DNA of 64,000 nt from Escherichia coli (GTDB taxonomy: Bacteria; Pseudomonadota; Gammaproteobacteria; Enterobacterales; Enterobacteriaceae). The notes below the pieces were generated by a model. It was given only the letters and a program-made list of their open reading frames with translations, ran no database searches and was not told where the DNA came from. The stretch lies in assembly GCF_001677475.2 (NCBI RefSeq), contig NZ_CP015229.1; one strand, written 5' to 3'. Shown piece after piece: positions 24,592 through 64,000 of this stretch (its first letter is position 1; every line of letters starts with the position of its first letter). The position numbers were made by a program, and so were the translations under genes.

Positions 24592-24651
24592 TGGCGGAAG
24601 CGCAGAGATTCGAACTCTGGAACCCTTTCGGGTCGCCGGTTTTCAAGACCG
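24592..24651 (-). pseudogene. serT: 3' 60 nt of tRNA-Ser(UGA) serT; prophage att junction
   Basis: TGGCGGAAGCGCAGAGATTCGAACTCTGGAACCCTTTCGGGTCGCCGGTTTTCAAGACCG is the reverse complement of the CCA end, T arm, long variable arm and anticodon region of serT. The match stops at 24651, where AT-rich phage DNA begins. Confidence 0.85.
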
Positions 24652-39880: not shown

Positions 39881-40261
39881 ATGACTGAACGCATAGAATT
39901 TGTTTTGCCTTACCCGCCGACGGTAAACACCTACTGGAGACGTCATGGCAATACGTATTTCATCTCGGAAGTCGGAAAGCGTTATCGCCGTGATGTGGCT
40001 CTAATTGTTCGCCAGCAGCGACTGAAATTAAACCTGTCCGGAAGGCTGGCGATAAAGATTATTGCAGAGCCACCGGATAAGCGCCGTCGTGACCTGGACA
40101 ATATCCTGAAAGCACCGCTGGATGCGTTGACGCATGCGGGACTGCTTATCGACGACGAGCAGTTTGATGAAATCAATATTGTGCGCGGTCAGCTTGTTCC
40201 TGGTGGTCGGCTGGGCGTGAAGATTGACGAAATAATGCATGACGGGCAGGTCCAAAAATGA
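39881..40261 (+). CDS. rusA: Holliday junction resolvase RusA
   Basis: 126 aa with PPTVNTYW and DKRRRDLDNILKAPLDALTHAGLLIDD motifs. Confidence 0.85.
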   Translation: MTERIEFVLPYPPTVNTYWRRHGNTYFISEVGKRYRRDVALIVRQQRLKLNLSGRLAIKIIAEPPDKRRRDLDNILKAPLDALTHAGLLIDDEQFDEINIVRGQLVPGGRLGVKIDEIMHDGQVQK

Positions 40262-41079
40262 AACTGGAAGATTTACCGAAATACTATTCCCCAAAATCGC
40301 CAGGCCTGACTGATGCATCCGCCTCGACGTCAAAAGATGCGCTGAGTATCACTGATGTGATGGCTGCGCAGGGTATGACACAGAACCGGGCTGAGATGGG
40401 ATTTTCTGCGTTCCTGGGGAAAATGGGCATTAGTATGAATGACAGGGCGCGGGCAACAGAATTACTGGCAGATTATGCATTAAGTCAGTGCGGTCGTGTG
40501 GCTGCGTTAAGAAAACTTCCGGCAGAGATAAAACCGGCAGTGATGCGCATTATGGCTTCGTACGCTTTTGAGGATTATGCCCGCAGCGCAGCGAGTAAAA
40601 AGCAATGCCCTTGTTGCCGAGGGGAAAAATTTATTGAAAGCGAGGTTTTTACAAACAAGGTTCAGTATCCGGATGGTAAGCCGCCAGTATGGGCAAAGTG
40701 TACAAAAGGCGTGTATCCGTCTTACTGGGAAGAATGGAAAAAAATCCGGGAGGTGGTGAAGGTTTCCTGTCCTGAATGTAAAGGGAAGGGAGAGATTTCG
40801 ACCGCCTGTAAAGACTGCCGTGGGCGTGGTGTAGCCATTCATCGTGAAGAGTCAGAAAAACGGGGTATGCCTGTTATCAGGGACTGCCAGCGTTGTGGCG
40901 GTCGTGGCTATGAAAGACAGCCGTCGACGGAGGCATTTAATGCCATATGTGAGGTGACAAATCAAATAACACGCGCGTCATGGGAAAAAACGGTTAAGCA
41001 ATTCTATGACACTCTGGTGGTTCGGTTTGACATTGAAGAGGCATGGGCGGAGCGGCAGTTAAAAAAGGTAACCAGATAA
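40258..41079 (+). CDS. late antiterminator Q (DnaJ-type zinc-finger class)
   Basis: 273 aa with CPECKGKGE..CKDCRGRG..CQRCGGRG. It lies upstream of a PR'/tR'-like region. Confidence 0.75.
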   Translation: MKLEDLPKYYSPKSPGLTDASASTSKDALSITDVMAAQGMTQNRAEMGFSAFLGKMGISMNDRARATELLADYALSQCGRVAALRKLPAEIKPAVMRIMASYAFEDYARSAASKKQCPCCRGEKFIESEVFTNKVQYPDGKPPVWAKCTKGVYPSYWEEWKKIREVVKVSCPECKGKGEISTACKDCRGRGVAIHREESEKRGMPVIRDCQRCGGRGYERQPSTEAFNAICEVTNQITRASWEKTVKQFYDTLVVRFDIEEAWAERQLKKVTR

Positions 41080-42379: not shown

Positions 42380-42455
42380 GGCCCTTTAGCTCAGTGGTGA
42401 GAGCGAGCGACTCATAATCGCCAGGTCGCTGGTTCAAATCCAGCAAGGGCCACCA
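42380..42455 (+). tRNA. ileZ: tRNA with CAU anticodon (ileZ-type Ile2/Met-like)
   Basis: 76 nt. The acceptor is GGCCCTT/AAGGGCC, the anticodon loop is CTCATAA, the T loop is GGTTCAAATCC, and CCA is encoded. Confidence 0.85.
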
Positions 42456-42460
42456 CCTTA

Positions 42461-42541
42461 CCGCCATTAGCTCATCGGGAAGAGCAAATGACATGATAAC
42501 AGGGTTGTTGGTGCGGGGTTCGAGTCCTCGATGGCGGTCCA
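42461..42541 (+). tRNA. tRNA-like gene with aberrant anticodon arm (possible pseudo-tRNA)
   Basis: 81 nt. The acceptor (CCGCCAT/ATGGCGG), D arm (GCTC..GAGC), T arm (CGGGG-TTCGAGT-CCTCG) and CCA are all good. The anticodon region folds only as a wobble-rich stem with an 11-nt loop. Confidence 0.5.
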
Positions 42542-42554
42542 TTATCTGCATCAT

Positions 42555-42631
42555 GCGTTGTTAGCTCAGTCGGACAGAGCAATTGCCTTCTAAGCAATCG
42601 GTCACTGGTTCGAATCCAGTACAACGCGCCA
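42555..42631 (+). tRNA. argO: tRNA-Arg(UCU)
   Basis: 77 nt. The acceptor is GCGTTGT/ACAACGC, the anticodon loop is CTTCTAA, and CCA is encoded. Confidence 0.88.
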
Positions 42632-44707: not shown

Positions 44708-45058
44708 ATGCCATCACGAATCCCACGCGCCTGCCGTAAGCGTGGATGTGCAGGTACAACCACAGACAGTTCTGGTTACTGCGATAAACATCGTGGCGAA
44801 GGATGGGTACAGCATCAACGCGGACTGAGCCGCCACCAGCGTGGCTATGGCTCGAAATGGGATGCCATACGTGCGCGCATACTGAAGCGTGATAATCATC
44901 TGTGTCAGAACTGCCTGCGCAATGGGAGAGCCGTTGAAGCCAGAACTGTGGACCACATCATTCCGAAAGCTCATGGTGGCACGGATGCAGACAGTAACCT
45001 GCAGAGTCTGTGCTGGCCCTGTCATAAAGCAAAAACAGCGCGCGAACGCATCAATTGA
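44708..45058 (+). CDS. HNH endonuclease (packaging-associated)
   Basis: 116 aa with DHIIPKAHGG...N...CWPCHKAKT. It lies directly upstream of terS. Confidence 0.85.
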   Translation: MPSRIPRACRKRGCAGTTTDSSGYCDKHRGEGWVQHQRGLSRHQRGYGSKWDAIRARILKRDNHLCQNCLRNGRAVEARTVDHIIPKAHGGTDADSNLQSLCWPCHKAKTARERIN

Positions 45059-45206: not shown

Positions 45207-45689
45207 ATGTCAGGACCTCCGAAAACCCCGCCACGCCTGCATTTGATACGAGGCAACCCCTCAAAGCGCCCCGTTAAAGACCACAAAAAAACCGCTAAAA
45301 AGGATGAAAAAGGTCTTCCTAAAATTCCGCAGCATTTAGGGGCTCAGGGGAAGTACTGGTTCAGGCGAATGGCGGAAGAGCTGAATGCGGAAGGGATCAT
45401 TTCTCAGCTTGATGCGCGTGCACTCGAGTTGCTGGTGGAAGCCTACACCGAATATCGGCATCACTGCGAAACACTCGATGTTGAGGGGTATACCTACCGC
45501 ACGGAAACGCAGAGCGGTGATGTACTGATTAAGGCGCACCCCGCGGCGGCAATGAAAGCGGATGCCTGGAAGCGGATCCGGGCAATGCTTGCAGAGTTTG
45601 GTATGTCACCGGCAAGCCGGGCTAAAGTAAATATCGCCGGACCGGATGATGTTGATCCGCTGGCGGAGCTTTTAAAAGCGAGAGACTGA
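45207..45689 (+). CDS. terS: terminase small subunit (P27-type)
   Basis: 160 aa, upstream of and overlapping the terL start. It is homologous in its C-terminal half to the satellite TerS. Confidence 0.8.
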   Translation: MSGPPKTPPRLHLIRGNPSKRPVKDHKKTAKKDEKGLPKIPQHLGAQGKYWFRRMAEELNAEGIISQLDARALELLVEAYTEYRHHCETLDVEGYTYRTETQSGDVLIKAHPAAAMKADAWKRIRAMLAEFGMSPASRAKVNIAGPDDVDPLAELLKARD

Positions 45690-46716
45690 TGGCAAAAGTG
45701 GCTGACGGGATCCGCTACGCCGAACGTGTTGTTGCAGGAGAAATTGTTGCTGGCGAATTTGTCCGCCTGGCCTGCCAGCGTTTTCTTGATGATCTGAAGT
45801 ACGGCGAAGAGCGGGGGATTTATTTCAGTGAACCCCGTGCGCAGCACATCCTGAATTTCTACAAATTTGTGCCTCATGTAAAAGGGGCGCTGGCAGGCCA
45901 GCCCATTGAGTTGATGGACTGGCATGTATTTATTCTCATTAATATTTTTGGTTTTGTCATTCCGCTGGTCAATGAAGAGACCGGGGAAGTTGTCATGCGC
46001 AGCGATGGCAGTGGACGTCCGGTGATGGTGCGCCGGTTCCGGACGGCGTACAACGAAGTCGCTCGTAAAAACGCAAAATCAACTCTGTCATCGGGTATCG
46101 GCCTGTATATGACGGGGGCAGATGGTGAAGGCGGAGCTGAGGTGTATTCAGCCGCAACCACGCGTGACCAGGCCAGAATCGTGTTTGAAGACGCCAAAAA
46201 TATGGTCAGAAAAGCCCGGTCGACACTCGGGCGGTTGTTTGATTTCAACAAGCTGGCGATTTACCAGGAGCAGAGCGCATCAAAATTTGAACCGCTTTCT
46301 TCGGATGCAAACAACCTAGACGGTCTGAACATCCACTGCGCCATTATTGATGAGCTGCATGCACATAAAACCCGCGACGTGTGGGACGTTCTGGAAACGG
46401 CAACCGGTGCCCGTCTGCAGTCCCTGTTATTTGGTATCACCACGGCGGGCTTTAACAAGGAAGGGATTTGTTACGAGCAACGCGATTACGCCATCAAGGT
46501 ATTGCGAGGCTATAACAGCGACGTGGAGGGCGCGGTAAAAGACGACTCCTACTTTGCGATTATTTACACGCTCGATGAGGGAGATGATCCGTTTGATGAA
46601 ACGGTCTGGCAGAAAGCGAATCCGGGCCTGGGCATCTGTAAACGCTGGGATGATCTGCGTCGTCTGGCGAAAAAAGCGAAGGAGCAGGTCTCGGCGCGGG
46701 TGAATTTTTTCACGAA
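45689..46716 (+). pseudogene. terL: prophage terminase large subunit, 5' (ATPase) fragment, interrupted by satellite
   Basis: The fragment aligns with the satellite TerL up to ...RVNFFTK. The frame then reads 55 unrelated codons of island DNA. Confidence 0.88.
46710..46716. repeat. satellite attL core TCACGAA
   Basis: The same 7-mer occurs at 62119-62125, with 12/14 identity when extended (AATTTTTTCACGAA vs AATATTCTCACGAA). Confidence 0.75.
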
Positions 46717-46845
46717 GAAAGTAACATCACGCCGTAACAACAGTGCAGTCTGTCCTGATTTTTTTAGTAACCAAATGAAAGAAAAAGATTTTTTCTTGTT
46801 CGTCGTTTTTGTTTTTTCTGGATGGTTCTGGCTGTTTTCATCATT

Positions 46846-46868
46846 TGTGTATTGCACTGTGTATTGCA
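46846..46868 (+). repeat. tandem TGTGTATTGCA x2 (putative integrase arm-type sites, left end)
   Basis: Copies lie at 46846-46856 and 46858-46868. A similar pair, GTGTATTGC x2, lies at 62023-62043 with the same 12-nt register. Confidence 0.6.
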
Positions 46869-46887
46869 AAAACGGGTTATAAATCAC

Positions 46888-48111
46888 ATGGCGCTAAACA
46901 AACTGAGCGATAAAAAACTTCGTTCCCTGCTTGGACGCAGGAGTGAGAGACAGGAAACCATCGCTGATGGTAACGGGCTTTCGGTACGGGTCAGTAAATA
47001 CGGATGTGTTAGTTTTGTTTTCTTTTACAGACTGGCGGGAAGGGGAACCGCGCCCATCTGGCTGACACTTGGAAAATATCCTGATCTGAGTCTCAAATCA
47101 GCGAGAGAGATGCGCGATCAGTGTCGAACCTGGCTTGCGGAGGGCAGAGATCCACGGATTCAGATAAAAATTGAACGGGAAGCCACCTTGCAACCTGTTA
47201 CCGTTCGTGAGGCACTTGAATACTGGCTTGATAATTATGCAATGGATAAGCGTAGGGGAGCAGAACATATCAGGCAGTGCTTTGGTAAACATATTTATCC
47301 GGTGATTGGTCATGTACCACTTAGTGATTGCTCTATATCTATGTGGATTAAGTGTTTTGACAAAATAAAAAAAGTAGCACCTGTACAGGCCGGAGCTTTG
47401 TTGCGTATATCAAAACAGGCGCTTAAATTTTGTAGGGTAAGAAAATACGCGATTAGTCATGAAATTGATGATCTTGAGGTCTGTGATGTGGGAAAAAAGT
47501 CTGCGCGAAGAAGCAGGGTTTTAACAGATGATGAAATCAGAGATTTATGGCGAAGTATTAATACTGATTATGACAATCACGAATTATCATATGAAAACCG
47601 AATTATTTTACGTTTCCTGGTAGTTTTTGGTTGCCGACTGTCAGAAGTATTACTGTCGTCCTGGGGAGAGTGGGATTTTGATAAGAAATTATGGCGCGTT
47701 CCCGCTGAACATAGCAAAAATGGCAGGGAAATAATCAGACCGATTCCTGATGGCATGTTTAACTGGTTAGTTACGTTAAAAAAAATAACAGGTAACAAAG
47801 AAAATGTGATTGGGTTTGATATGCGTCAGTGTACGGCAAGCGTAACTATCGGTAAGACATGGAAAAGGATGAAACACTCGGAGAAATGGACGGCGCATGA
47901 TATGCGAAGAGTGTTTGCCACAAAACTAAGTGATCATGGTTTTGAACATAATGTGGTTGAACAGTTGCTTGGGCACACATTAGGCGGTGTTGCCGGGGTT
48001 TATAACAGAAGCCAGTATATGGACAGAAAAAAAGAAGCTATGAACTGGTGGTACGACTATCTGAATAAGCAAATTAGTGGTGACGGTAATGATTCAAATA
48101 GTTACGCGTGA
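46888..48111 (+). CDS. int: P4-type tyrosine integrase of the satellite
   Basis: 407 aa from MALNKLSDKKLRSLLG. The C-terminal catalytic region reads GCRLSEVL...HDMRRVFATKL...LGHTLGGVAGVYNR. Confidence 0.88.
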   Translation: MALNKLSDKKLRSLLGRRSERQETIADGNGLSVRVSKYGCVSFVFFYRLAGRGTAPIWLTLGKYPDLSLKSAREMRDQCRTWLAEGRDPRIQIKIEREATLQPVTVREALEYWLDNYAMDKRRGAEHIRQCFGKHIYPVIGHVPLSDCSISMWIKCFDKIKKVAPVQAGALLRISKQALKFCRVRKYAISHEIDDLEVCDVGKKSARRSRVLTDDEIRDLWRSINTDYDNHELSYENRIILRFLVVFGCRLSEVLLSSWGEWDFDKKLWRVPAEHSKNGREIIRPIPDGMFNWLVTLKKITGNKENVIGFDMRQCTASVTIGKTWKRMKHSEKWTAHDMRRVFATKLSDHGFEHNVVEQLLGHTLGGVAGVYNRSQYMDRKKEAMNWWYDYLNKQISGDGNDSNSYA

Positions 48112-48310
48112 AGAACTTGAAAATGATAAAACAATCGACAGGATGATTAAGGAAGATGAATGTGCATGGTTAACCGCTCTTGGCAGGAGACACAGATCGT
48201 TACTTGAAAAGGAAGGAAAATTTCCACGAAAAATATGTATTGGTCCACAAACAAAAGTCTGGCGCTTATCTGAGGTGCTGGAATGGGTAAAAGGTGAATG
48301 GAAACCCTGA
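48089..48310 (+). CDS. alpA: AlpA-family HTH regulator/excisionase 1
   Basis: RMIKEDECAWLTALGRRHRSLLEKEGKFPRKICIGPQTKVWRLSEVLEWV fits the AlpA pattern. The start is uncertain (48077, 48089 or 48143). Confidence 0.7.
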   Translation: MIQIVTREELENDKTIDRMIKEDECAWLTALGRRHRSLLEKEGKFPRKICIGPQTKVWRLSEVLEWVKGEWKP

Positions 48311-48373
48311 GCTAAATTAAATGAGATATAATCAACCCGTCTTTTGGCGGGTTTTTTTATAGGTGATATTTTT

Positions 48374-48652
48374 ATGCAAAAATTTATTTATCCTACACCC
48401 GAAGAACGCATTCAGATTCTGAAAGATCATGGCGAACCGTATGATCGCCGTATACGCGAACATGAGTGTGCCAATCGTACCGGGCTTTCAAGAAGCAGAC
48501 GTTGGGTACTTGAACAGGAGGGAGCATTTCCTGCTCGTGCTCATTTAGGGAAAGTGTCTGTTTCCTGGTTGCTCTCTGATGTGCTCTGGTGGGTTATGCA
48601 TCCGCCAGGAGTAAAGGAAGTAAACAGCCCATACAAAAACGCCAATAAGTAA
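48374..48652 (+). CDS. AlpA-family HTH regulator 2
   Basis: 92 aa with IREHECANRTGLSRSRRWVLEQEGAFPARAHLGKVSVSWLLSDVLWWV. Confidence 0.7.
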   Translation: MQKFIYPTPEERIQILKDHGEPYDRRIREHECANRTGLSRSRRWVLEQEGAFPARAHLGKVSVSWLLSDVLWWVMHPPGVKEVNSPYKNANK

Positions 48653-48662
48653 TTACCGACAA

Positions 48663-48690
48663 CCCCGCACCACGCAATGCGGGGTTTTTT
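48663..48690 (+). terminator. rho-independent terminator
   Basis: CCCCGCA-CCACGCAA-TGCGGGG-T6. Confidence 0.8.
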
Positions 48691-48709
48691 GTATGTGAGG
48701 TAGAAAGTG

Positions 48710-49303
48710 ATGAATAAAAATATTGCCGTGACGGGCAAGGGTGACGCACGTCATGTGAAAAAATTCTGTGATATTCGTGATCTGGTCGTTCTGCGCTTTG
48801 ATAGTGTGAACGTTCGCGTGGTGTATCTGAACGGCGATCCGTGGTTTGTTGGCGCTGATGTGTGTGCGGCGCTGGAAATTAGCAACGTTACCGATGCTGT
48901 TTCAGTTCTGGATAACGATGAGGTAATGACCCTAGCTTTAACCGAGGGTCATTCAGGTAAGCGTGGTGGTGCCAGAAGTTGGAATGTTGTATCAGAATCA
49001 GGTTTTTACAAGTTGATCGCCAGAAGTCGCAAAGCTGTTAATCCTGGCACGTTCGCCCATCGTTTCAGTAATTGGGTATTCAGAAATGTGATACCGGGTA
49101 TCAGAAAAACGGGGGCTTATGGTATCCCGTGGGGCGCATTACAGGATTTTTCCCGCCGCAAAGAGCAATATCAGGTAAGTGCCAGCGAGAAGGGGAGGGA
49201 GCTACAGGCATGTAAGCGCAAAAAGCGTGAGCTAGAGGAAGAAGAAAAAAGGCTGATACGTGAATATCAGCCTGAGTTTTACTTTGGTGAGCGTATTCAG
49301 TAA
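48710..49303 (+). CDS. BRO-N domain (antirepressor-like) protein
   Basis: 197 aa with VRVVYLNGDPWFVGADVCAALEISN...SESGFYKLIARSRKA...FSNWVFRNVIPGIRKTGAY. Confidence 0.75.
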   Translation: MNKNIAVTGKGDARHVKKFCDIRDLVVLRFDSVNVRVVYLNGDPWFVGADVCAALEISNVTDAVSVLDNDEVMTLALTEGHSGKRGGARSWNVVSESGFYKLIARSRKAVNPGTFAHRFSNWVFRNVIPGIRKTGAYGIPWGALQDFSRRKEQYQVSASEKGRELQACKRKKRELEEEEKRLIREYQPEFYFGERIQ

Positions 49304-49461
49304 CCACACGCGGTGCTGATTATACGGTACATCGTGTTAACCGAGAAGCTACCCACCAGCAAGGCAAAATCTTCTGCTAAAAAATGACATATGGCCAGTC
49401 GTCTGGAAAGCATGAAATTTTACAAAAATGGAAAATGAAGATTTTTATTGTGCTGGTGGGT

Positions 49462-49492
49462 AAAAACAAAAAGCGCCCCGTTGCCGGAGCGC
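49462..49492 (-). terminator. minus-strand rho-independent terminator
   Basis: The minus strand reads GCGCTCCG-GCAA-CGGGGCGC followed by TTTTTGTTTTT. Confidence 0.75.
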
Positions 49493-49588
49493 CCTTGCGA
49501 ACAATTAACCTACTGCGCAAAAAAATGAATCTGTGCAGGGGGATTATATCAACCGTGTGACGAAGCGCCACAATTGCCGGATAACAGG

Positions 49589-49617
49589 CAAAGAAAAGGC
49601 CACCCGCTACGGTGGCC
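49589..49617 (-). terminator. minus-strand terminator/attenuator
   Basis: The minus strand reads GGCCACC-GTAGCG-GGTGGCC followed by TTTTCTTTG. Confidence 0.6.
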
Positions 49618-55608: not shown

Positions 55609-56754
55609 ATGAAGAAATTAATCGAACTCCGCCAGCAAAAAACCGCCCTGAAAAACCAGATGCGATCCCTGCTGGAAAAAGCCGACAGTGAAAACCGCAG
55701 CCTGAACGATGACGAAGGCAAACAGTTTGATGAACTGCGTGCAAAAGCCGATTCCCTCGACACAGAAATCTCCCGTCTTGAAGCTGTTGCGGATGAAGAA
55801 CGTAACCAGCCAGGTGTTTGCGTCGAAGAGAAAATTACCAAAGACGAACTGCGCTCTTACATTCTGACCGGGGAAACCCGCAACCTGTCCGGCAGTGTTC
55901 CGGCTGATGGTGGTTATACGGTTATCCCGGAACTGAACAGAGAAATTATGCGTCAGCTTTCTGATGAATCGGTGATGCGTAAAATCTGTACTGTTAAAAC
56001 CATTCACAGCAATGAATTTAAGCAACTGGTTTCTGCCGGGGGCGCGGTCGTTGAACACGGTGAAGAAGGCACTACACGTAACCAGACGGCAACCCCAAAA
56101 CTGAATGAAGTCAGTATCCGCCTGTATCCGATCTACGCTTACCCGAAAACCACTCAGGAAATTATCGATTTTTCCGAAGTCGATATTATGGGCTGGTTAT
56201 CTTCTGAAATTGGCGACACTTTCGTTGATACCGAAGAAACGGATCTGGTTTCTGGTGATGGCGAGAAAAAAGCTAAAGGTTTCCTGGCTTTTCCGCGCAC
56301 TGAGGATAACGACAAAACCCGTCCTTTCGGTACGCTCCAGACGAAAAAAGTTACTGGCAGTCTTAGCGCCGACATGCTGATTGACCTGAAATTTACGCTG
56401 CGCAATAAGTACCGCAAAAAAGCTGTATGGGTGATGAACTCAAATACAGCCGCCTCCGCACAAAAACTGAAAAATGCCACTGGTGATTACATCTGGCGCG
56501 ATCGTTTACAGGCTGGTGATCCTGATTCTCTGCTGGGGCTTCCGGTTGAATATCTGGAATTTATGCCGGACGGTGTGATTGCAGTAGGTGACTTTAAGCG
56601 CGGTTATTTCATCGTTGACCATGAAACCGGTACGCGTACCCGTCCGGATTTCAGCGAACCTGGATTCATTAACATCTATACCCAGAAATATCTGGGCGGT
56701 GGTGTGGTGGATTCGAACGCCATCAAGATTCTGGAAATTCAGGCTGGCAAGTAA
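55609..56754 (+). CDS. HK97-family major capsid protein (with N-terminal delta/scaffold domain)
   Basis: 381 aa with an N-terminal coiled coil and then a capsid fold. The gene order capsid-protease-portal supports the call. Confidence 0.85.
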   Translation: MKKLIELRQQKTALKNQMRSLLEKADSENRSLNDDEGKQFDELRAKADSLDTEISRLEAVADEERNQPGVCVEEKITKDELRSYILTGETRNLSGSVPADGGYTVIPELNREIMRQLSDESVMRKICTVKTIHSNEFKQLVSAGGAVVEHGEEGTTRNQTATPKLNEVSIRLYPIYAYPKTTQEIIDFSEVDIMGWLSSEIGDTFVDTEETDLVSGDGEKKAKGFLAFPRTEDNDKTRPFGTLQTKKVTGSLSADMLIDLKFTLRNKYRKKAVWVMNSNTAASAQKLKNATGDYIWRDRLQAGDPDSLLGLPVEYLEFMPDGVIAVGDFKRGYFIVDHETGTRTRPDFSEPGFINIYTQKYLGGGVVDSNAIKILEIQAGK

Positions 56755-56760
56755 TGAGCA

Positions 56761-56785
56761 AAGGGGGCTTCGGCCTCCTTTTTCA
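56761..56785 (+). terminator. hairpin plus T-run after capsid gene (attenuator)
   Basis: AAGGGGGC-TTCG-GCCTCCTT followed by TTT. Confidence 0.55.
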
Positions 56786-56803
56786 GCTTTATGGAGTACA
56801 CCG

Positions 56804-57364
56804 ATGAAAAACACCGATTTTGAAATCCGTACATCTGAACTGACCGCCAGCGATAAAAAACTGGTGGGTTATGCCGTTCGCTGGAACAGCCTTTCAGAAA
56901 TTATTTGGGACGAATTCCGCGAACAGTTCACGCCGGGGGCTTTTGCTGACTATCTGGCGGCGGGTAATGATGTGCGCTGCCTGTATGAGCATGACTATAC
57001 CCGACTGCTGGGGCGCACCAAATCCGGAACACTGGTACTGACTGAGGACAACACCGGGCTACGTTTTGAACTGACACCGCCTGATACCCAGCTTGGAAAA
57101 GATGTGCTTACGCTGGTGGAGCGTGGCGACATTACAGGAATGAGCTTTGGCTTTCGCGCATTATGCGAAGAGTGGAATATCGCGCAAAAACCGTATCTGC
57201 GCACTGTTACCGCCGCAGAACTCCGTGAAATCACGATAACGTCGATGCCTGCTTATCCCGAATCTGGCGTGGAGATTGCCCACCGTTCGTTGTTTGCACA
57301 GCACCCTGAATTACGCCCGGCAGGAAATAATCGTCATCGCTGGGCTGAACTGGCGGGGTTGTGA
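56804..57364 (+). CDS. HK97-family prohead protease
   Basis: 186 aa from MKNTDFEIRTSELTASDKKLVGYAVRWNS...YEHD...GMSFGF. Confidence 0.85.
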   Translation: MKNTDFEIRTSELTASDKKLVGYAVRWNSLSEIIWDEFREQFTPGAFADYLAAGNDVRCLYEHDYTRLLGRTKSGTLVLTEDNTGLRFELTPPDTQLGKDVLTLVERGDITGMSFGFRALCEEWNIAQKPYLRTVTAAELREITITSMPAYPESGVEIAHRSLFAQHPELRPAGNNRHRWAELAGL

Positions 57365-57365
57365 T

Positions 57366-58580
57366 ATGTGGTGGCCTTTTAGTCGTAAAAAAAGCGATCT
57401 GCGTAACCTGTCCATTGATGATTTTCTGGCGCTGTCCGGCGTACCGAATACCGGATCCGGAGAATATGTTTCTGCCGGGACGGCTGAATCATTGCCTGCT
57501 GTGATGAACGCGGTTTCTGTCATCGCTGAGGCGGTGGCCACGATGCCGTGTTATCTGTATCTGGTACGCAATGATAAGGGCAGGGAGGCGCGGGAGTGGC
57601 TGGACAGTCATCCGGTCGATATTCTGCTGAATGAGCAGCCTAATTCGTGCCAGACACCTTACCAGTTTAAACGCACAATGATGCGTCACTGCCTGCTGAA
57701 CGGTAACGCCTATGCGGTTATTGAGTGGGGGCGGGACGGTCAGCCAAAATCACTTCATCCTTATGCGCCGGGGTGTGTTGTACCGGAACGCACTGGCGCG
57801 CACAAATACCGCTATACCATCACCGAACCCTATACAGGAACGGTGCGCACGTATTTACAGGAAGAAGTCCTGCATCTCCGCTATGCCTCGGATGATGGCT
57901 TTCTGGGACGTTCCCCCGTCACGATTTGCCGTGAGGCGCTGGGGCTTGGCCTTGCTCAACAGCGTCACGGAGCCAGCATTATGAAAGATGGCATGATGGC
58001 GGCAGGGATTATCACGTCAGGCGAATGGCTGGACGGTGTGAAAGGTAAACAGGCATTAGACGCCCTGGAACGCTACAAGGGGGCGAAAAATGCCGGAAAA
58101 ACGCCAATCCTTGAAGGGGGCATGGATTACAAGCAACTGGGGATGAGTAACCAGGATGCGGAATGGCTGGCCTCCCGTCGCTTCTCCATTGAAGACATCG
58201 CCCGGATGTTCAACGTGTCGCCGATTTTTCTTCAGGAATACAGCAACAGCACCTACAGCAATTTCAGTGAGGCAAGCCGCGCGTTTCTGACCATGACAAT
58301 GCGCCCATGGCTGGCGAACTTCGAACAGCAAATTAAGGCCGCTTTGCTGGTGGCTTCTCCCGTACCTGGTACCCGTTATCTGGTTGAGTTTGATTCAGCC
58401 GATTTACTGCGCGCTACTCCAACCGAGCGTTACGCCACGTATGAGAAAGGGATTAAGAACGGGATCATGAATCCGAACGAAGCCCGCGAACGTGAGGGGA
58501 TGCCGCCGCGTGAAGGTGGCGACGAATTCAGCCAGGCATGGAAGCAGACGGTGGAAATTAAAGGTGAAAAAGATGAGTGA
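57366..58580 (+). CDS. HK97-family portal protein
   Basis: 404 aa from MWWPFSRKKS. It is homologous to the prophage portal at 63049. Confidence 0.85.
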   Translation: MWWPFSRKKSDLRNLSIDDFLALSGVPNTGSGEYVSAGTAESLPAVMNAVSVIAEAVATMPCYLYLVRNDKGREAREWLDSHPVDILLNEQPNSCQTPYQFKRTMMRHCLLNGNAYAVIEWGRDGQPKSLHPYAPGCVVPERTGAHKYRYTITEPYTGTVRTYLQEEVLHLRYASDDGFLGRSPVTICREALGLGLAQQRHGASIMKDGMMAAGIITSGEWLDGVKGKQALDALERYKGAKNAGKTPILEGGMDYKQLGMSNQDAEWLASRRFSIEDIARMFNVSPIFLQEYSNSTYSNFSEASRAFLTMTMRPWLANFEQQIKAALLVASPVPGTRYLVEFDSADLLRATPTERYATYEKGIKNGIMNPNEAREREGMPPREGGDEFSQAWKQTVEIKGEKDE

Positions 58581-58872
58581 AGAAAAAATTACACCTGATG
58601 AAGTCAGGGCACATCTTCGCCTTGATGACTTTTCCGGAGAGGGCGAACTTCTGAAAATGTATACCGATGCGGCGCTGGAAGCCTGCCAGAAGCATATCGG
58701 GAAACGTTTTGAAGACGGCCTGGAATTTACCCCGGCAATACGTGTTGGTTGCCTGATGTACATTGCTTTCCTGTACGAGAACAGGGAAGCGGTTTCACCT
58801 GTGGAGCAGTCTGAACTGCCTATGGCTATTTCTGCGCTCTGGTCGGTTTATCGTGATGTGGGGGTGTACTGA
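58573..58872 (+). CDS. gp6-like head-tail connector
   Basis: 99 aa from MSEEKITPDEVRAHLRLDD. Confidence 0.7.
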   Translation: MSEEKITPDEVRAHLRLDDFSGEGELLKMYTDAALEACQKHIGKRFEDGLEFTPAIRVGCLMYIAFLYENREAVSPVEQSELPMAISALWSVYRDVGVY

Positions 58873-59312
58873 TGCCGTGGCAACCATTAAGGCGATGCAC
58901 TGAGCCGGGCTGTAATAAGCGCGTGAAGTCCGGCAAGTGTGAAGAGCACAGGCGGGCTGCATGGCGTGCAGAGGATGCCAGACGGGGACACCGCCGCGCG
59001 CGCGGGTATTCCCGACAGTGGGACAAATACCGCGCCCTGTACCTGAGCAAAAACCCGTTATGCGTGCGTTGTCTGGCTAAGGGGATTTATACGCCAGCTC
59101 TTGTGGTGGATCACATCATTCCCATCAATGGCGGCGGTGATGTTCTCTTCTGGCCTGAGTGGAACCACCAGGCATTGTGCCAGACGTGCCACAACCGTAA
59201 GACGACACGGGAAGACCCAGCCACGAAAGCGAACCGTAAGGCGGGCATGTATCGCGAGCAGGAAGAACGGGCGGCACACCGTAACGACTGGATGTATGGC
59301 GATGATGACTGA
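58872..59312 (+). CDS. HNH endonuclease (packaging-associated)
   Basis: 146 aa with CVRC...DHIIPINGGG...CQTCHNRKT. Confidence 0.85.
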   Translation: MPWQPLRRCTEPGCNKRVKSGKCEEHRRAAWRAEDARRGHRRARGYSRQWDKYRALYLSKNPLCVRCLAKGIYTPALVVDHIIPINGGGDVLFWPEWNHQALCQTCHNRKTTREDPATKANRKAGMYREQEERAAHRNDWMYGDDD

Positions 59313-59600
59313 ACATGAGCAAAACAGGCTGATACGTGGACTGATAAGGCAACGTGACTTATGGAAGACACAGGAGACAGGGCACAAAGCCAACAGGACA
59401 GGGCGCACAGAACGCACCACAGCGAAGCGATTAACCGACCGTGACCGCGAGGTCATGGAATGTTTTCGCAATCGCTGGTGAGGCTGTCAGAGGGGGTGGG
59501 GGAGGTTTTCAGGACGAAACCGTCCCTGCCGGACACCGACCGCCTCCTCAAATTTTTGTGCACGGTAATTTTTTTGAAAATAATTGGGCGAAAAAAGAAC

Positions 59601-59957
59601 ATGGCAAGACCACCAAAAGCCCCCGCTTACCTGGATGAAATCGCGGTCAGGCAGTGGAAGGAAAAATCGCGCCAGCTTTCCGTGCGGGAAGACCTTACCC
59701 CCGCCGACTGGAGCAATCTGGAACTGTATTGTGTTAACTACTCCATATACCGCAAAGCCGTCGAAGACCTTGCGACGCGCGGGTTCAGCATTGTTAACAG
59801 TCAGGGCAGCGAGAGCAGAAACCCCGCCCTGAGCGCAAAGGCTGACGCGGAAAGAATAATGATCAAAATGGCTTCTTTGCTGGGTTTTGACCCGGTAAGC
59901 CGCCGCAGAAATCCACCGGAAACAGAGGAAGAGGACGAGCTTGACCGCCTGGCATGA
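59601..59957 (+). CDS. terS: terminase small subunit (P27-type)
   Basis: 118 aa from MARPPKAPAYLDEIAVRQW. Confidence 0.8.
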   Translation: MARPPKAPAYLDEIAVRQWKEKSRQLSVREDLTPADWSNLELYCVNYSIYRKAVEDLATRGFSIVNSQGSESRNPALSAKADAERIMIKMASLLGFDPVSRRRNPPETEEEDELDRLA

Positions 59958-61602
59958 GTACGCAGAAGGCGTAAAAAACGGCAAAATTACGGCCTGTAAA
60001 CGACTGAAACAGGCCGTTAAACGGTATTTTTCTGACCTTGAAAACCCCCTTTACACGTTCGAGCCGGAGGTCGTGGAGCGGTTTATTGCCTTTTCCAGGG
60101 TGTGTCCGCACGTAAAAGGCGCAATGCGCGGTAGCCCCATTGAGCTGGAGCCGTGGCAGCAGTTCGCCTTTGCGTGCATCCTGGGCTTTAAGGTTAAGGC
60201 CACCGGACGGCGCAAATACACCAGCGCATTCATTGAAGTACCGCGTAAAAATGCCAAATCCACGGTCGCCGCTATCCTGGCTAACTGGTTTCTGGTTATG
60301 GAAAACGGGCAGCAGGATATTTACACCGCCGCCGTGAGTCGTGATCAGGCGCGGATCGTGTTTGATGATGCGCGTCAGATGTGCCTTTTATCCCGACCGT
60401 TACGAAAGCGGGTAAATATTCAGGCACACAAGGTGATACACCCGAAAACCAACAGCCTGTTAAAGCCACTGGCAGCAAAAGCGGCAACCATTGAAGGTAC
60501 AAACCCGAGTCTTGCTATTGTGGATGAATATCACCTGCACCCTGACAACGGGGTTTATTCCGCGCTTGAACTGGGAATGGGGGCGCGTCCGGAGGGGTTA
60601 TTATTTGCCATCACCACATCGGGGAGCAACGTTGTTTCAGCCTGTAAACAACACTACGACTATTGCTGCCAGATACTGGATGGTGAAGAGGTGAACGAAT
60701 CCATGTTCGTGCTGATTTACGAGCTGGATGATGAAAGCGAGGTTGACGATCCGGCGATGTGGATAAAGGCGAATCCCAATATCGATGTTTCCGTCGATCG
60801 TGAAAAACTGGCCTCAACCATCCAGAAAGCGCGGGGTATTCCGTCGCAGTGGGTGGAGATGCTCACCAAGCGATTCAATATCTGGTGTCAGGGGGCTACG
60901 CCGTGGATGGGTAACGGTGCATGGGCGGAGTGCGCCGGAACGTTCGCGGAGGCGGATTTATACGGGCAGGAGTGCTACGCGGGGCTGGACTTATCATCAA
61001 CCAGCGATATTTCCAGCGTGTGCTATGCCTTTCCGGTCGGTAAAAAGATTATGCTGGTTTCCCGTCACTATCTGCCGGAATTTCAGCTACAGAACCCCGC
61101 CAATAAAAACCGCGCCATCTATCGCCAGTGGGTAAAGGCGGGCTGGATACGCACAACACCGGGTGACTGCATTGATTATGACCGTATCCGTGATGACATC
61201 ATGGCGGATGCAGAGAATTTCAATATCAGGCTGGTGGGCTTCGATACATGGAACGCCACGCACCTGAGGACGCAGCTACAGGGCGCAGGATTTGAGGTGG
61301 AGCCGTTCCCGCAAACATACCTTCGTTTCAGTCCGGCGGCGAAATCGTTCGAAGTTTTTGTTAACCGGAAGGTGATTGTGCATCGTGGTGATCCGGTGCT
61401 GGCCTGGTCAATGAGTAATGTTGTGATGCAGAGTGACGCGAACGCCAATATCAAGCCGAACAAGAAAAAATCATCCAACAAGATAGACCCGAGCGTTGCG
61501 GCGCTGATGGCGTTTGGCACATTCCAGGCAGAGCATGAGGAATTTGCATTCGATATGAGCGACAGCCACAAAGAGCGGCTTGCGGCGTTTGATGGTGTGT
61601 AA
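59941..61602 (+). CDS. terL: terminase large subunit (intact, satellite copy)
   Basis: 553 aa, colinear with both fragments of the prophage terL. Confidence 0.88.
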   Translation: MTAWHEYAEGVKNGKITACKRLKQAVKRYFSDLENPLYTFEPEVVERFIAFSRVCPHVKGAMRGSPIELEPWQQFAFACILGFKVKATGRRKYTSAFIEVPRKNAKSTVAAILANWFLVMENGQQDIYTAAVSRDQARIVFDDARQMCLLSRPLRKRVNIQAHKVIHPKTNSLLKPLAAKAATIEGTNPSLAIVDEYHLHPDNGVYSALELGMGARPEGLLFAITTSGSNVVSACKQHYDYCCQILDGEEVNESMFVLIYELDDESEVDDPAMWIKANPNIDVSVDREKLASTIQKARGIPSQWVEMLTKRFNIWCQGATPWMGNGAWAECAGTFAEADLYGQECYAGLDLSSTSDISSVCYAFPVGKKIMLVSRHYLPEFQLQNPANKNRAIYRQWVKAGWIRTTPGDCIDYDRIRDDIMADAENFNIRLVGFDTWNATHLRTQLQGAGFEVEPFPQTYLRFSPAAKSFEVFVNRKVIVHRGDPVLAWSMSNVVMQSDANANIKPNKKKSSNKIDPSVAALMAFGTFQAEHEEFAFDMSDSHKERLAAFDGV

Positions 61603-61682
61603 CGGAATGGATGAGAGAGGACAATGCTCATTTAATGGAATAAATTTTCAGTATTACCGGCACCCACTTTCAGGGATGTTTT

Positions 61683-61838
61683 TGCGGGTTATTTGAGGGG
61701 TGTTTGCGGGTTATTTTGAATGTCTTGCGGGTTACATTCTGGCTGATATTTAAATACGTTGTTTTTTTAACGTATTGATATTAAAGAGTAAAAGATAATT
61801 AGCACGCGAAGATAACCCGCTAACCCGCATAACCCGCA
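61683..61838. repeat. TGCGGGTTA array: 3 direct (21-22 nt phasing) plus 3 inverted tandem copies around an AT-rich palindrome
   Basis: Direct copies lie at 61683, 61705 and 61726. Inverted TAACCCGC copies lie at 61813, 61821 and 61830. The palindrome AATACGTT-N8-AACGTATT lies at 61752-61776. Confidence 0.85.
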
Positions 61839-62022
61839 CTGTTTTGTATATATATACGAAAAATTGCATTCAGGGGGGATCGAAATTTCTACTGCCTCTT
61901 ATCTCTTTGAGTGCTCACCTCGTCAGATTGTTACACACAAGAAATAAAAAATGCTTCGCGATGGTAGGTCGAATCACTGTATCAAAAAACGGTGTGTATC
62001 AGCATTAAAACAATACAGATAC

Positions 62023-62043
62023 GTGTATTGCGCTGTGTATTGC
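62023..62043 (+). repeat. tandem GTGTATTGC x2 (putative integrase arm sites, right end)
   Basis: This pair matches the left-end pair at 46846-46868. Confidence 0.6.
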
Positions 62044-62118
62044 TCGATGATTTATAAAGACTGTTTTTTCATGTTAAACGATTGATATACAGACGATTTT
62101 AAAAAGCTTGAAATATTC

Positions 62119-62125
62119 TCACGAA
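62119..62125. repeat. satellite attR core TCACGAA
   Basis: See the attL core. Confidence 0.75.
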
Positions 62126-62855
62126 ACACATGAATGTGTGGGTCACTGCCGAATCGGCCTGGATGGACATGATTAAGTGGGAGAAGTGCGAATACATCGC
62201 TCCACAGCATGAGCTGAAAACGTATCCCATGTGGGTCGGCGTCGACCTTGCACATAAGATTGATATCTGTGCGGCGGCAAAACTCTGGCGAACGGATAAC
62301 GGGCATGTTCATGCCGATTTTAAATTCTGGCTTCCGGAAGGGCGACTGGAACGGTGTTCACGGCAGCAGGCAGAACTTTACCGGAAGTGGGCGGAGATGG
62401 ATAAGCTCATCCTGACGGATGGTGATGTTATCGATCATGCTCAGATAAAAAGTGACTTACTGGAATGGATTGGTGGTGAAAACCTCAGGGAACTGGGATT
62501 TGACCCGTGGAGCGCGATGCAGTTCAGCCTGGCACTGGCTGAAGAAGGGATACCGCTGGTGGAGGTTCCGCAGACGGTCCGCAATCTGTCAGAGGCCATG
62601 AAGGAAACGGAATCACTGGTCTATGCCGGACGTTTCCACCACAGCAATCACCCGGTCATGAACTGGATGATGTCTAACGTTACGGTGAAACCGGACAAAA
62701 ACGACAATATCTTCCCGAATAAATCCACGCCGGAAGCCAAAATCGACGGCCCTGTTGCGATGTTTACAGCAATGAGCCGGATGCTGGTCAATGGCGGTGA
62801 ACCGGAGCCGGATCTGTCTGAACACCTGATCAGTGTTGGTATCCGCTCGCTTTAA
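62126..62855 (+). pseudogene. terL: prophage terminase large subunit, 3' (nuclease) fragment
   Basis: HMNVWVTAESAWMDMIKWEKC... aligns with satellite TerL FNIWCQGATPWMGNGAWAEC. The fragment is in frame with the 5' fragment when joined at the core. Confidence 0.88.
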
Positions 62856-62866
62856 CTGAGGGCATT

Positions 62867-63049
62867 ATGTTTCTGATAATTCTCACGCCACTGGTGGGCG
62901 TGCTGGGGGCGCTTTTGCTGTCGTATGGCACATGGCTGATTTATCCCCCGGCAGGTTTTGTTGTTGCCGGGGGGCTGTGCCTGTGCTGGTCGTGGCTGGT
63001 TGCGCGATATCTCGACCGTACACAGCCGTCTGTCGGCGGAGGTAAATAG
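62867..63049 (+). CDS. small two-TM membrane protein
   Basis: 60 aa, hydrophobic, between terL and portal. Confidence 0.5.
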
Positions 63050-64000
63050 TGTTCTTTTCGGGATTATTTCAACGAAAAAGTGACGCGCCGGTGACCACGC
63101 CAGCAGAGCTGGCGGATGCCATCGGGTTGTCCTACGACACCTATACCGGAAAGCAGATCAGCAGTCAGCGGGCCATGCGACTGACGGCGGTGTATTCCTG
63201 TGTCAGGGTGCTGGCTGAGTCTGTTGGTATGCTGCCCTGCAGTCTCTACAAAATCAGCGGCACCCTTAAAACACGGGCGGTGGATGAACGACTGCATAAG
63301 CTGGTTTCGGCAAAACCTAATGGCTACATGACGCCGCAGGAATTCTGGGAACTGGTCATTGTCTGCCTGTGTCTGCGGGGGAATTTTTACGCCTACAAGG
63401 TAAAGGCACTGGGGGAAGTGGTGGAGCTTCTCCCGATAGATCCGGGCTGTGTGGAACCGAAGCTGAACAGCCAGTGGCAGCCGGTTTATCAGGTGACGTT
63501 TCCGGATGGTTCCGTGGATGTGTTGACCCAGGATGAAATCTGGCATGTGCGCACCCTGACGCTGGATGGACTTGTCGGTCTGAATCCCATTGCGTATGCG
63601 CGTGAGGCCATTTCACTGGCAGCGGCAACCGAGGAGCACGGCGCCAGGCTGTTTGGTAACGGCGCTGTGACATCCGGTGTGTTGCGTACAGAACAAAAGC
63701 TCACGCCGGATGCTTATGAGCGCATGAAGAGGGATTTTGAGGAGCGTCATCTTGGGCTGGGTAATGCGCACCGTCCGATGATTCTGGAAATGGGGCTGGA
63801 CTGGAAGCCGGTGGCACTGAATGCCGAGGACAGCCAGTTCCTGGAAACCCGCAAGTTTCAGCTGGAAGAAATCTGTCGCCTGTTCCGCGTTCCGCTGCAT
63901 ATGGTGCAGAACACTGATCGCGCCACCTTCAACAATATTGAAGAGCTGGGGCTTGGCTTCATTAACTATTCCCTTGTGCCGTATCTGACCCGTATTGAAC
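63049..64000 (+). CDS. prophage HK97-family portal protein (runs off right edge)
   Basis: The GTG overlaps the previous stop. The product [15 protein letters not shown]...AMRLTAVYSCVRVLAESVGMLPCSLY is colinear with the satellite portal. It is not in the track because it is open-ended. Confidence 0.8.
   Translation, partial: MFFSGLFQRKSDAPVTTPAELADAIGLSYDTYTGKQISSQRAMRLTAVYSCVRVLAESVGMLPCSLYKISGTLKTRAVDERLHKLVSAKPNGYMTPQEFWELVIVCLCLRGNFYAYKVKALGEVVELLPIDPGCVEPKLNSQWQPVYQVTFPDGSVDVLTQDEIWHVRTLTLDGLVGLNPIAYAREAISLAAATEEHGARLFGNGAVTSGVLRTEQKLTPDAYERMKRDFEERHLGLGNAHRPMILEMGLDWKPVALNAEDSQFLETRKFQLEEICRLFRVPLHMVQNTDRATFNNIEELGLGFINYSLVPYLTRIE

What the first reader, a model, noticed from the sequence alone, without database searches (positions are those of the whole stretch)
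45689..46888. Satellite insertion splits prophage terL in frame at a conserved coding motif, and excision would rebuild the gene
**Seen in sequence.**
- The terL 5' fragment (45689-46716, 1028 nt) plus the 3' fragment (62126-62855, 730 nt) total 1758 nt. That is exactly 586 codons with no frameshift.
- The rebuilt junction reads ...ARVNFFTK-HMNVWVTAESAW.... This aligns with the satellite's own TerL ...EMLTKRFNIWCQGATPW....
- The break falls between the N-terminal ATPase half and the C-terminal nuclease half.
- The 7-bp core TCACGAA lies inside the conserved (F/L)TK motif.
- The satellite's own terL has TCACCAA at the homologous place (60863-60869), one mismatch away.

**Inference.**
- The integrase uses a terL coding motif of this phage family as attB.
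- The resident phage cannot package while the satellite is integrated.
- Precise excision would work as a reversible genetic switch.
- The one-base difference may protect the satellite's own terL from self-targeting.
Basis: partly seen in the sequence, partly recalled or inferred. Interest (0 to 1): 0.85.

Follow-up and report, generated by a model that had tools for sequence, protein, structure and literature searches.

The report
Known satellite embedded in prophage terL
A 15.4-kb phage satellite sits inside the large-terminase gene of an E. coli prophage so that precise excision would rebuild the gene, but this exact arrangement was already published in 2023 as a "helper-embedded PICI".

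Summary
The terL 5' piece (45689-46716) plus the 3' piece (62126-62855) make one 1758-nt ORF. It aligns without gaps to intact terL of phage Evi and matches intact terL in 905 complete E. coli genomes. A 15,409-bp island lies between two TCACGAA repeats. It carries int, two alpA genes, Bro-N, a C4 RNA, a primase-helicase and a full head and packaging module.

This is not new. Tommasini, Mageeney and Williams 2023 (PMC10111431) describe helper-embedded PICIs (HE-PICIs) at 14 prophage late-gene sites. Their group A_Terminase_1_246 has 34 aligned members, core tcacgaa or ttaccaa, in E. coli, E. albertii and Arsenophonus. Its attL and attR alignments match this window almost base for base. I confirmed the defining features: same orientation as terL, no replacement sequence, and the doubled TGTATTGC motif at the published spacing. 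All 35 E. coli genomes with this integrase have it in terL.

The "one-base self-protection" idea is not supported. TCACCAA occurs in the own terL of satellites of both core types, and in a cfPICI at hpt with an unrelated integrase.

What remains possibly new is small. This HE group is a capsid-forming PICI, and the crossover core is unusually polymorphic at two wobble positions.

The parts
45689..46716 (+). Helper prophage terL, 5' fragment (codons 1-342 plus 2 nt). As an ORF it runs on to a TAA at 46880-46882.
   Evidence: PGAP marks the equivalent piece in E. coli 042 as 'terminase large subunit, missing C-terminus'.
46710..46716 (+). attL copy of the 7-bp crossover core TCACGAA.
   Evidence: Same as the published 'Att identity' tcacgaa for A_Terminase_1_246.
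46717..62125 (+). The satellite, 15,409 bp counting one core copy: a helper-embedded PICI of the capsid-forming type.
46848..46867 (+). Doubled motif TGTATTGCactgTGTATTGC on the int-proximal attP arm, +135 to +154 from the core centre.
   Evidence: Published HE-PICI motif, 132 +/- 2 bp downstream.
46888..48111 (+). Satellite tyrosine integrase (Arm-DNA-bind_3 plus Phage_integrase domains).
   Evidence: Found in 35 E. coli genomes, each of which also has the terL-int junction.
48077..48310 (+). AlpA-family excisionase/regulator, copy 1. A terminator-like hairpin follows at 48334-48353.
48344..48652 (+). AlpA-family excisionase/regulator, copy 2. A terminator-like hairpin follows at 48661-48686.
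48707..49303 (+). Bro-N domain protein.
50652..50739 (+). C4 antisense (immunity-type) RNA.
   Evidence: Rfam RF01695, 72.3 bits against a gathering score of 45.
51927..53336 (+). Replication protein (AAA_25, primase/helicase type).
53787..54212 (+). Single-strand DNA-binding protein.
55609..56754 (+). Satellite major capsid protein (HK97-like).
56588..57364 (+). Satellite prohead protease. These are ORF limits; the true start is probably later.
57276..58580 (+). Satellite portal protein. These are ORF limits.
58492..58872 (+). Head-tail adaptor (Ad1).
58872..59312 (+). HNH endonuclease of the packaging module.
59460..59957 (+). Satellite terS (Terminase_4 / P27 family).
59941..61602 (+). The satellite's own terL, 32% aa identical to the helper TerL. 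It holds TCACCAA at 60863-60869.
62024..62043 (+). Doubled motif TGTATTGCgctgTGTATTGC on the distal attP arm, -98 to -79 from the core centre.
   Evidence: Published spacing is 81 +/- 2 bp upstream.
62119..62125 (+). attR copy of the core TCACGAA.
62126..62855 (+). Helper terL, 3' fragment (last nt of codon 343 to the stop).
   Evidence: PGAP in E. coli 042 calls it 'terminase TerL endonuclease subunit, missing N-terminus'.
45207..45689 (+). Helper terS.
44708..45058 (+). Helper HNH endonuclease.
40258..41079 (+). Helper Q-like antiterminator. It lies upstream of, and in the same orientation as, the lysis-HNH-terS-terL late genes.
24793..25812 (-). Helper prophage integrase, next to a tRNA-Ser (serT) 3' half at 24594-24650.
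63049..64000 (+). Helper portal gene. It runs off the window end.
   Evidence: Same gene order as in phage Evi and E. coli 042.

Best explanation
**What it is.** A helper-embedded phage-inducible chromosomal island (HE-PICI) of the published site group A:Terminase_1:246. It is integrated by its own P4-like tyrosine integrase into the F-T-K codons of the terL gene of a lambdoid, HK97-type-head prophage, and that prophage itself sits in serT.

**Shown at sequence level.**
- The 15,409-bp island lies between two TCACGAA cores.
- It has the same orientation as terL.
- It brings no replacement sequence, so terL is split. Recombination between the two cores would restore a 1758-nt terL exactly.

**Inferred from the sibling element 11capE and from the anatomy.**
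1. On induction, the helper-satellite composite excises and replicates.
2. Q-antiterminated late transcription runs through lysis, HNH, terS and the terL 5' piece straight into int and alpA. No promoter-like or terminator-like site lies in the 171-nt gap.
3. Int plus AlpA then excise the satellite. This rebuilds helper terL only late in the cycle.

**Inferred by homology to cfPICIs such as EcCIEDL933.** The satellite replicates with its own primase-helicase, builds its own small HK97-like capsids, and fills them with its own TerS/TerL/HNH. It needs only tails from the helper.

**Net effect.** Helper packaging is blocked while the satellite is in place and delayed on induction, and the satellite is wired in cis into the helper's late programme.
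For: - **Match to the published group.** The attL and attR alignments and the 'tcacgaa' identity block of A_Terminase_1_246 match the window flanks. The group has 34 aligned members.
- **Motif.** The doubled TGTATTGC motif occurs exactly twice in 64 kb, both on the + strand, at -98..-79 and +135..+154 from the attP centre. The published values are 81 +/- 2 and 132 +/- 2.
- **Integration module.** Integrase and two AlpA genes.
- **Site specificity.** The integrase is in 35 E. coli genomes and the attL junction is in 35.
- **Clade tropism, replicated here.** Related integrases (48-53% identity) carrying the same motif sit behind truncated portal, ClpP protease, gpA terminase, TerL ATPase and capsid E genes.
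- **Restorable gene.** The rebuilt terL matches intact genes in 905 genomes and aligns without gaps to phage Evi terL. It is intact in 9 of 9 other complete composites, and the attL core equals the attR core in 12 of 12.
- **Full cfPICI late module.** Capsid, protease, portal, adaptor, HNH, terS and terL. This module is 97% nt identical over 6.2 kb to an hpt-integrated cfPICI; the terS-terL end (2.7 kb) is 89% identical to the element at the EcCIEDL933 locus.
- **Read-through is plausible.** A helper Q antiterminator lies upstream, and no terminator-like or promoter-like site lies between the terL 5' piece and int.
- **Experimental precedent.** Composite excision, then replication, then satellite excision was measured for 11capE.
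Against: - No experiment exists for the terL site itself.
- The predicted attP junction was not found in IMG/VR or in the metagenome contigs.
- The window ends 1.1 kb after terL, so the helper's tail genes, and hence its competence, cannot be judged.
- In E. coli 042 the helper integrase is frameshifted. The paper also notes that many helpers look truncated. Some composites may therefore be stranded.
- Terminator-like hairpins follow each alpA. Read-through into the rest of the island would need antitermination or internal promoters.
- The authors could not recover virions even for 11capE.
Confidence: 0.88

Rival explanations
1. Dead-end disruption. The satellite landed in terL of a decaying prophage and the composite is now an immobile remnant. 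The split serves no regulatory purpose and is never reversed.
For: - The helper integrase is frameshifted in E. coli 042.
- The paper reports many truncated helpers.
- No attP form was found in the sequence collections.
- No virions were recovered for 11capE.
Against: - Both terL halves remain intact and in frame in this window and in 9 of 9 other complete composites, whose terL genes differ by 3-6% nt.
- Int, both alpA genes and the entire late module are intact ORFs.
- The helper early, Q, lysis, HNH and terS genes are intact here.
- Precise excision was measured for the sibling element.
Confidence: 0.12
2. Off-target or accidental insertion of an ordinary chromosomal cfPICI into a terL sequence that happens to resemble its normal attB.
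For: - The same late module (97% nt identity) occurs in a cfPICI at the chromosomal hpt site.
- Off-target events are documented for HE-PICI integrases.
Against: - The hpt element has a different integrase (48% identity) and lacks the doubled motif.
- This integrase is next to the terL 5' piece in all 35 genomes that have it.
- An Arsenophonus relative with a 70%-identical integrase targets the same codon of a divergent terL.
Confidence: 0.02
3. Host-beneficial neutralisation. The insertion persists mainly because it cripples a resident prophage's packaging, in effect taming the prophage, rather than because it times the satellite's life cycle.
For: - terL is essential for packaging (established knowledge of tailed-phage terminases).
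- 3.7% of genomes carrying this terL family are occupied: 35 of 934.
Against: - Lysis genes lie upstream of the break and are intact, so induction would still kill the cell.
- The design features serve the satellite: same orientation as terL, no terminator before int, and arm motifs.
Confidence: 0.05

Closest known systems
HE-PICI site group A:Terminase_1:246 (Tommasini, Mageeney & Williams 2023, NAR Genom Bioinform 5:lqad036; PMC10111431)
   Same: - Same target codon in the same terL family.
- Same attL and attR flanks.
- Same core: tcacgaa, with the alternative ttaccaa.
- Same 15-16 kb size.
- Same doubled arm motif and spacing.
- Same hosts: E. coli and E. albertii.
   Different: Nothing substantive. 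This window is another instance. Whether this particular genome is in their table could not be checked.
11capE / 50icd in E. coli NRG857c, the prototype HE-PICI in capsid gene E
   Same: - Same integrase clade and arm motif.
- Same orientation as a lambdoid late gene.
- Disrupts the gene without a replacement sequence.
- Excision restores the gene, and this was measured.
   Different: - The target is the capsid gene, not terL.
- 11capE is 11 kb, lacks terS, and is presumed to use the helper's cos machinery.
- The element here carries a complete head and packaging module.
Capsid-forming PICIs such as EcCIEDL933 (Alqurainy et al.; bioRxiv 10.1101/2022.09.08.507074)
   Same: - Same gene set and order: int, alpA, replication, capsid, protease, portal, connector, HNH, terS, terL, with no tail or lysis genes.
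- The terS-terL end (2.7 kb) is 89% nt identical to the element at the EcCIEDL933 locus (roxA-phoQ).
   Different: - EcCIEDL933-type elements sit at chromosomal attB sites, six of which are reported.
- Their integrase is 43% identical and they lack the doubled motif.
- They were described as not interfering with the helper. Here the helper's terL is physically split.
Regulated gene integrity / phage regulatory switches, for example the Listeria comK prophage and the Bacillus skin and SPbeta elements (from my own knowledge; the concept is cited)
   Same: An integrative element interrupts a coding gene, and precise excision restores it at a defined time.
   Different: The interrupted gene belongs to another mobile element, the helper phage, and the regulation benefits the satellite rather than the cell.

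Membership tests
HE-PICI (helper-embedded PICI) | Integrated inside a prophage late gene, with no replacement sequence in attP, so the gene is split. | tested here: met
   terL is split at codon 343. The island adds 54 unrelated codons and then a stop. The halves rejoin to the intact 1758-nt gene.
HE-PICI (helper-embedded PICI) | Key satellite genes (int, alpA, primase) have the same orientation as the interrupted late gene. | tested here: met
   All are on the + strand, like terL.
HE-PICI (helper-embedded PICI) | Terminal tyrosine integrase of the HE clade, followed by AlpA. | tested here: met
   - Arm-DNA-bind_3 plus Phage_integrase domains, and two AlpA genes.
- 70% identical to the published Arsenophonus Ana29 member and 48-53% to integrases at other late-gene sites.
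- No formal phylogeny was built.
HE-PICI (helper-embedded PICI) | Doubled motif tgTGTATTGCantgTGTATTGCa, two copies in the same orientation, about 81 bp upstream and about 132 bp downstream of the attP centre. | tested here: met
   The only two exact copies in 64 kb are at -98..-79 and +135..+154 (-100..-78 and +133..+155 with the flanking bases) (compared).
HE-PICI (helper-embedded PICI) | Site group A_Terminase_1_246: att identity block tcacgaa or ttaccaa and the published attL/attR flanks. | tested here: met
   The flanks read the same as the published alignments.
HE-PICI (helper-embedded PICI) | Induction leads to composite excision, replication, then satellite excision that restores the late gene. 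| not testable with these tools
   Shown only for 11capE. No attP junction was found in the public contigs.
cfPICI (capsid-forming PICI) | Core genes present: int, alpA, primase-replicase, capsid, protease, portal, head-tail adaptor/connector, HNH, terS, terL. No tail or lysis genes. | tested here: met
   All were found by Pfam or PHROGs, and no tail or holin ORF was seen. Only one connector-type gene was identified.
cfPICI (capsid-forming PICI) | Sequence relationship to established cfPICIs. | tested here: met
   - The terS-terL end is 89% nt identical to the element at the EcCIEDL933 locus in O157:H7.
- The late module is 97% identical to an hpt cfPICI.
- The terL family is present in 531 E. 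coli genomes.
cfPICI (capsid-forming PICI) | Makes its own small capsids and takes only tails from the helper. | not testable with these tools
   Experimental property, shown for EcCIEDL933.

The most novel reading that the evidence does not exclude
The 7-bp crossover core inside terL may be a site of synonymous-site co-evolution between helper phages and their embedded satellites.

- Helper terL genes carry at least five synonymous core alleles: TTACCAA, TCACGAA, TCACAAA, TCACCAA and TTACTAA.
- These alleles differ only at the two wobble positions of the core.
- Satellites exist with matching attP cores for TTACCAA and TCACGAA, and for TAACAAA in Arsenophonus.
- Rare alleles could therefore act as escape variants that block integration without changing TerL.
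- Alternatively, the alleles could be footprints left by Int-mediated strand exchange.

Separately, this HE group is a capsid-forming PICI. It needs only tails, yet it physically disables its helper's packaging motor.
Probability: 0.25. Interest if true: 0.5.

Novelty: already known. Interest (0 to 1): 0.2.

Why it matters
- **As a discovery it adds little.** Both the phenomenon and this very site are published.
- **As an annotation point it is useful.** PGAP labels the two terL pieces as unrelated pseudogenes (E. coli 042). IMG/VR calls the 59.6-kb composite a single virus. Recognising the nested structure prevents both errors.
- **Two leads may be worth a small follow-up.** This HE group belongs to the capsid-forming PICIs, which links two bodies of literature that do not cite each other's concept. 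The crossover core also shows raised synonymous diversity, which could be a tractable case of attB/attP co-evolution.

Tried and rejected
1. **Self-protection by the TCACCAA mismatch: rejected.**
   - The 7-mer is constant across satellites of both core types, in 14 of 15.
   - It is also present in an hpt-integrated cfPICI with an unrelated integrase.
   - Flank identity could not settle the question. attB against attP is no more similar (8/25 and 6/25) than attB against the self site (11/25 and 10/25).
2. **Translational coupling of int to the truncated terL ORF: rejected as a family design.** The stop at 46880-46882 is 5 nt before the int ATG. In other HE-type elements, however, the interrupted ORF stops 40-162 nt before int. 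It remains a possible quirk of this group.
3. **Search for the excised attP form: nothing found.** There were 0 hits in IMG/VR and 0 in the metagenome contigs. Contig L137 looked like a free satellite but is a different cfPICI that shares only the late module.
4. **Distant blastn with int to find other site groups: uninformative.** It gave only short 60-80% hits. The arm-motif scan worked instead.
5. **Pfam and PADLOC on the island ORFs 49533-50504, 50497-50964 and the minus-strand pair 54478-55314: no hits**.
6. **Are rare core alleles never occupied? Underpowered.** 0 of 15 occupied sites carry a rare allele, against 13% of empty sites (10 of 76). With those numbers p is about 0.12.
Full report
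**1. Checking the observation**

The coordinates and arithmetic are right. Bases 45689-46716 (1028 nt) plus 62126-62855 (730 nt) give 1758 nt, which translates to 585 residues plus a stop with no internal stop. TCACGAA lies at 46710-46716 and at 62119-62125. A 7-mer repeat means nothing on its own. The window holds 11 exact copies and 190 copies with up to one mismatch.

The evidence that counts is the rejoin:
- An 800-nt sequence spanning the rebuilt junction matches uninterrupted 'terminase large subunit' genes in 905 complete E. coli genomes and 11 phages at 95-99% identity.
- The whole rebuilt gene aligns without gaps to the 1758-nt terL of phage Evi, at 95.1% nt and 96.9% aa identity. At the junction it differs only by a synonymous variant of the core.

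One detail is loose. The break is in codon 343. That is 75 residues past the Pfam ATPase match (112-268) and 60 residues inside the Pfam nuclease match (283-563).

**2. What the insert is**

The 15,409-bp insert (46717-62125) encodes the following, all on the same strand as terL:
- a tyrosine integrase with an Arm-DNA-bind_3 domain
- two AlpA-family proteins
- a Bro-N protein
- a C4 antisense RNA
- an AAA_25 replication protein and an SSB
- a major capsid protein, prohead protease and portal
- an Ad1 adaptor, HNH, terS and its own terL

It has no tail or lysis genes. This is the gene set of a capsid-forming PICI (cfPICI). Its late module is 97% nt identical over 6.2 kb to a cfPICI at the hpt locus of strain E2528-C1. 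The terS-terL end (2.7 kb) is 89% identical to the element at the EcCIEDL933 locus (roxA-phoQ) of O157:H7.

The surrounding prophage is lambdoid. Upstream of terL it has an integrase next to a serT remnant, a RecE-like exonuclease, an O-like replication protein, a Q antiterminator, two tRNAs, an endolysin, HNH and terS. Its portal gene starts just after the terL 3' piece.

**3. It is already described**

[quoted passage not shown] One site group is A_Terminase_1_246, written A:Terminase_1:245 once in the text. Its members are 15-16 kb elements from E. coli and E. albertii, plus one from Arsenophonus. The att identity is 'tcacgaa' or 'ttaccaa', and the group has 34 aligned members. The published attL and attR alignments read the same as this window's flanks (compared).

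**4. Membership tests**

- The doubled motif TGTATTGCnnnnTGTATTGC, reported as unique to HE-PICIs, occurs exactly twice in the 64-kb window. Both copies are on the + strand, at -98..-79 and +135..+154 from the reconstructed attP centre. This fits the published 81 +/- 2 and 132 +/- 2 bp.
- The integrase gene (>=85% nt identity) is in 35 complete E. coli genomes, and the terL-int junction is in 35. The insertion is therefore site-specific.
- I used the motif as a probe on IMG/VR. It recovered related integrases (48-53% identical) sitting directly behind truncated Phage_portal_2, CLP_protease, GpA_ATPase, TerL_ATPase and Phage_cap_E genes. This independently reproduces the paper's late-gene tropism.
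- A 70%-identical integrase, which is the paper's Arsenophonus Ana29 element, sits at the same T-K codon of a divergent terL with core TAACAAA.

**5. Mechanism**

Shown at sequence level:
- Recombination between the two cores restores terL exactly.
- The attL core equals the attR core in 12 of 12 composites.
- The rebuilt gene is intact in 9 of 9 other complete composites, although their terL genes differ by 3-6% nt. That argues against a decaying dead end.

Inferred:
- Late transcription, antiterminated by the helper's Q protein, would run through terS and the terL 5' piece into int. No promoter-like or terminator-like site lies in the 171-nt gap.
- Int and AlpA then excise the island.

The order of events (composite excision, then replication, then satellite excision) was measured for the sibling element 11capE, not for this site. 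I found no attP junction in IMG/VR or in the metagenome contigs. The window ends before the helper's tail genes. In E. coli 042 the helper integrase is frameshifted, so some composites may be stranded.

**6.

The proposal was that the one-base difference (TCACCAA in the island's own terL) guards against self-targeting. Three results go against it:
- TCACCAA is one mismatch from both published cores.
- It is present in 14 of 15 satellites regardless of their core type.
- It also occurs in the hpt cfPICI, whose integrase is unrelated.

The 7-mer is inherited with the late module and follows from the shared L/F-T-K codons. A mismatch in the overlap would indeed hinder a tyrosine recombinase, which is established for lambda Int. 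Nothing indicates that the mismatch was selected for that purpose.

**7. Leads beyond the paper**

- Among 76 unique intact terL genes from IMG/VR, the core has five synonymous alleles: TTACCAA 55, TCACGAA 11, TCACAAA 7, TCACCAA 2 and TTACTAA 1.
- The core is in the top 4.2% of 7-nt windows for allele number.
- Gene position 1026 is in the top 1.9% of 574 third positions for entropy.
- Occupied sites carried only TTACCAA (10) or TCACGAA (5).

This hints at attB/attP co-evolution, or at recombination footprints. The sample was capped and conditioned on identical flanks, and the contrast between occupied and empty sites is not significant.

I also noted that the truncated terL ORF stops 5 nt before the int ATG. 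Other site groups lack this spacing, so I do not read it as a family design.

**8. Verdict**

- The main interpretation is right. The self-protection add-on is unsupported.
- Novelty: already known.
- Interest is low, with a modest residual lead.

Noticed in passing
window 50652-50739 (+): Rfam C4 antisense RNA (RF01695, 72.3 bits) inside the island's early region, within ORF 50497-50964. This fits the 'immunity repressor RNA' zone described for Gram-negative PICIs.
   Followed up: partly
window 46717-46890: The truncated terL ORF reads 54 island-encoded codons. They include a very hydrophobic stretch, FFLFVVFVFSGWFWLFSSFVY. The ORF stops at 46880-46882, 5 nt before the int ATG, and there is no clear Shine-Dalgarno sequence. 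The spacing is conserved in 9 of 12 IMG/VR members of this site group but not in other HE site groups.
   Followed up: yes
window 24594-24650 (-): Only the 3' half of tRNA-Ser (serT) is present next to yccA and the helper integrase, so the helper prophage is integrated in serT. ARAGORN and Rfam report no tRNA there.
   Followed up: partly
helper terL gene positions 1023 and 1026 (window 46711 and 46714): The two wobble positions inside the crossover core are unusually polymorphic among intact terL genes, with five synonymous core alleles. Satellites with matching attP cores are seen for only two of those five alleles (a third satellite core type, TAACAAA, occurs in Arsenophonus).
   Followed up: partly
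window 54478-55314 (-): Two opposite-strand ORFs (118 and 157 aa) lie between the island's replication and capsid modules. They have no Pfam or PADLOC hit. E. coli 042 has one hypothetical minus-strand gene at the same place. This may be an accessory cargo slot.
   Followed up: partly
window 48077-48686: Two tandem AlpA-family genes, each followed by a terminator-like hairpin (48334-48353 and 48661-48686).
   Followed up: no
L127 and L136 (IMGVR_UViG_2721755653_000010, 59.6 kb): This IMG/VR 'single virus' contig is 100% identical to the window over 10.5 kb. The helper-satellite composite was therefore catalogued as one virus. PGAP in E. coli 042 likewise lists the two terL pieces as separate pseudogenes.
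   Followed up: partly
L155 (E. coli E2528-C1, hpt locus) compared with window 55366-61609: The late (head and packaging) module is 97% identical between an hpt-integrated cfPICI and this terL-embedded one, while the integrases are only 48% identical. This suggests that integration modules are swapped between chromosomal and helper-embedded satellites. The same strain also carries an empty, 98.9%-identical helper-type terL.
   Followed up: partly
E. coli ETEC4090, TUM1881 and Z1324SEC0014: Three genomes carry two copies of this integrase. In ETEC4090 they lie about 135 kb apart, which suggests two occupied helper prophages in one chromosome.
   Followed up: no
window 42380-42631 (+): Helper-encoded tRNA with a CAT anticodon (called Met by ARAGORN; annotated tRNA-Ile in E. 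coli 042) and tRNA-Arg (TCT). Both lie downstream of Q.
   Followed up: no
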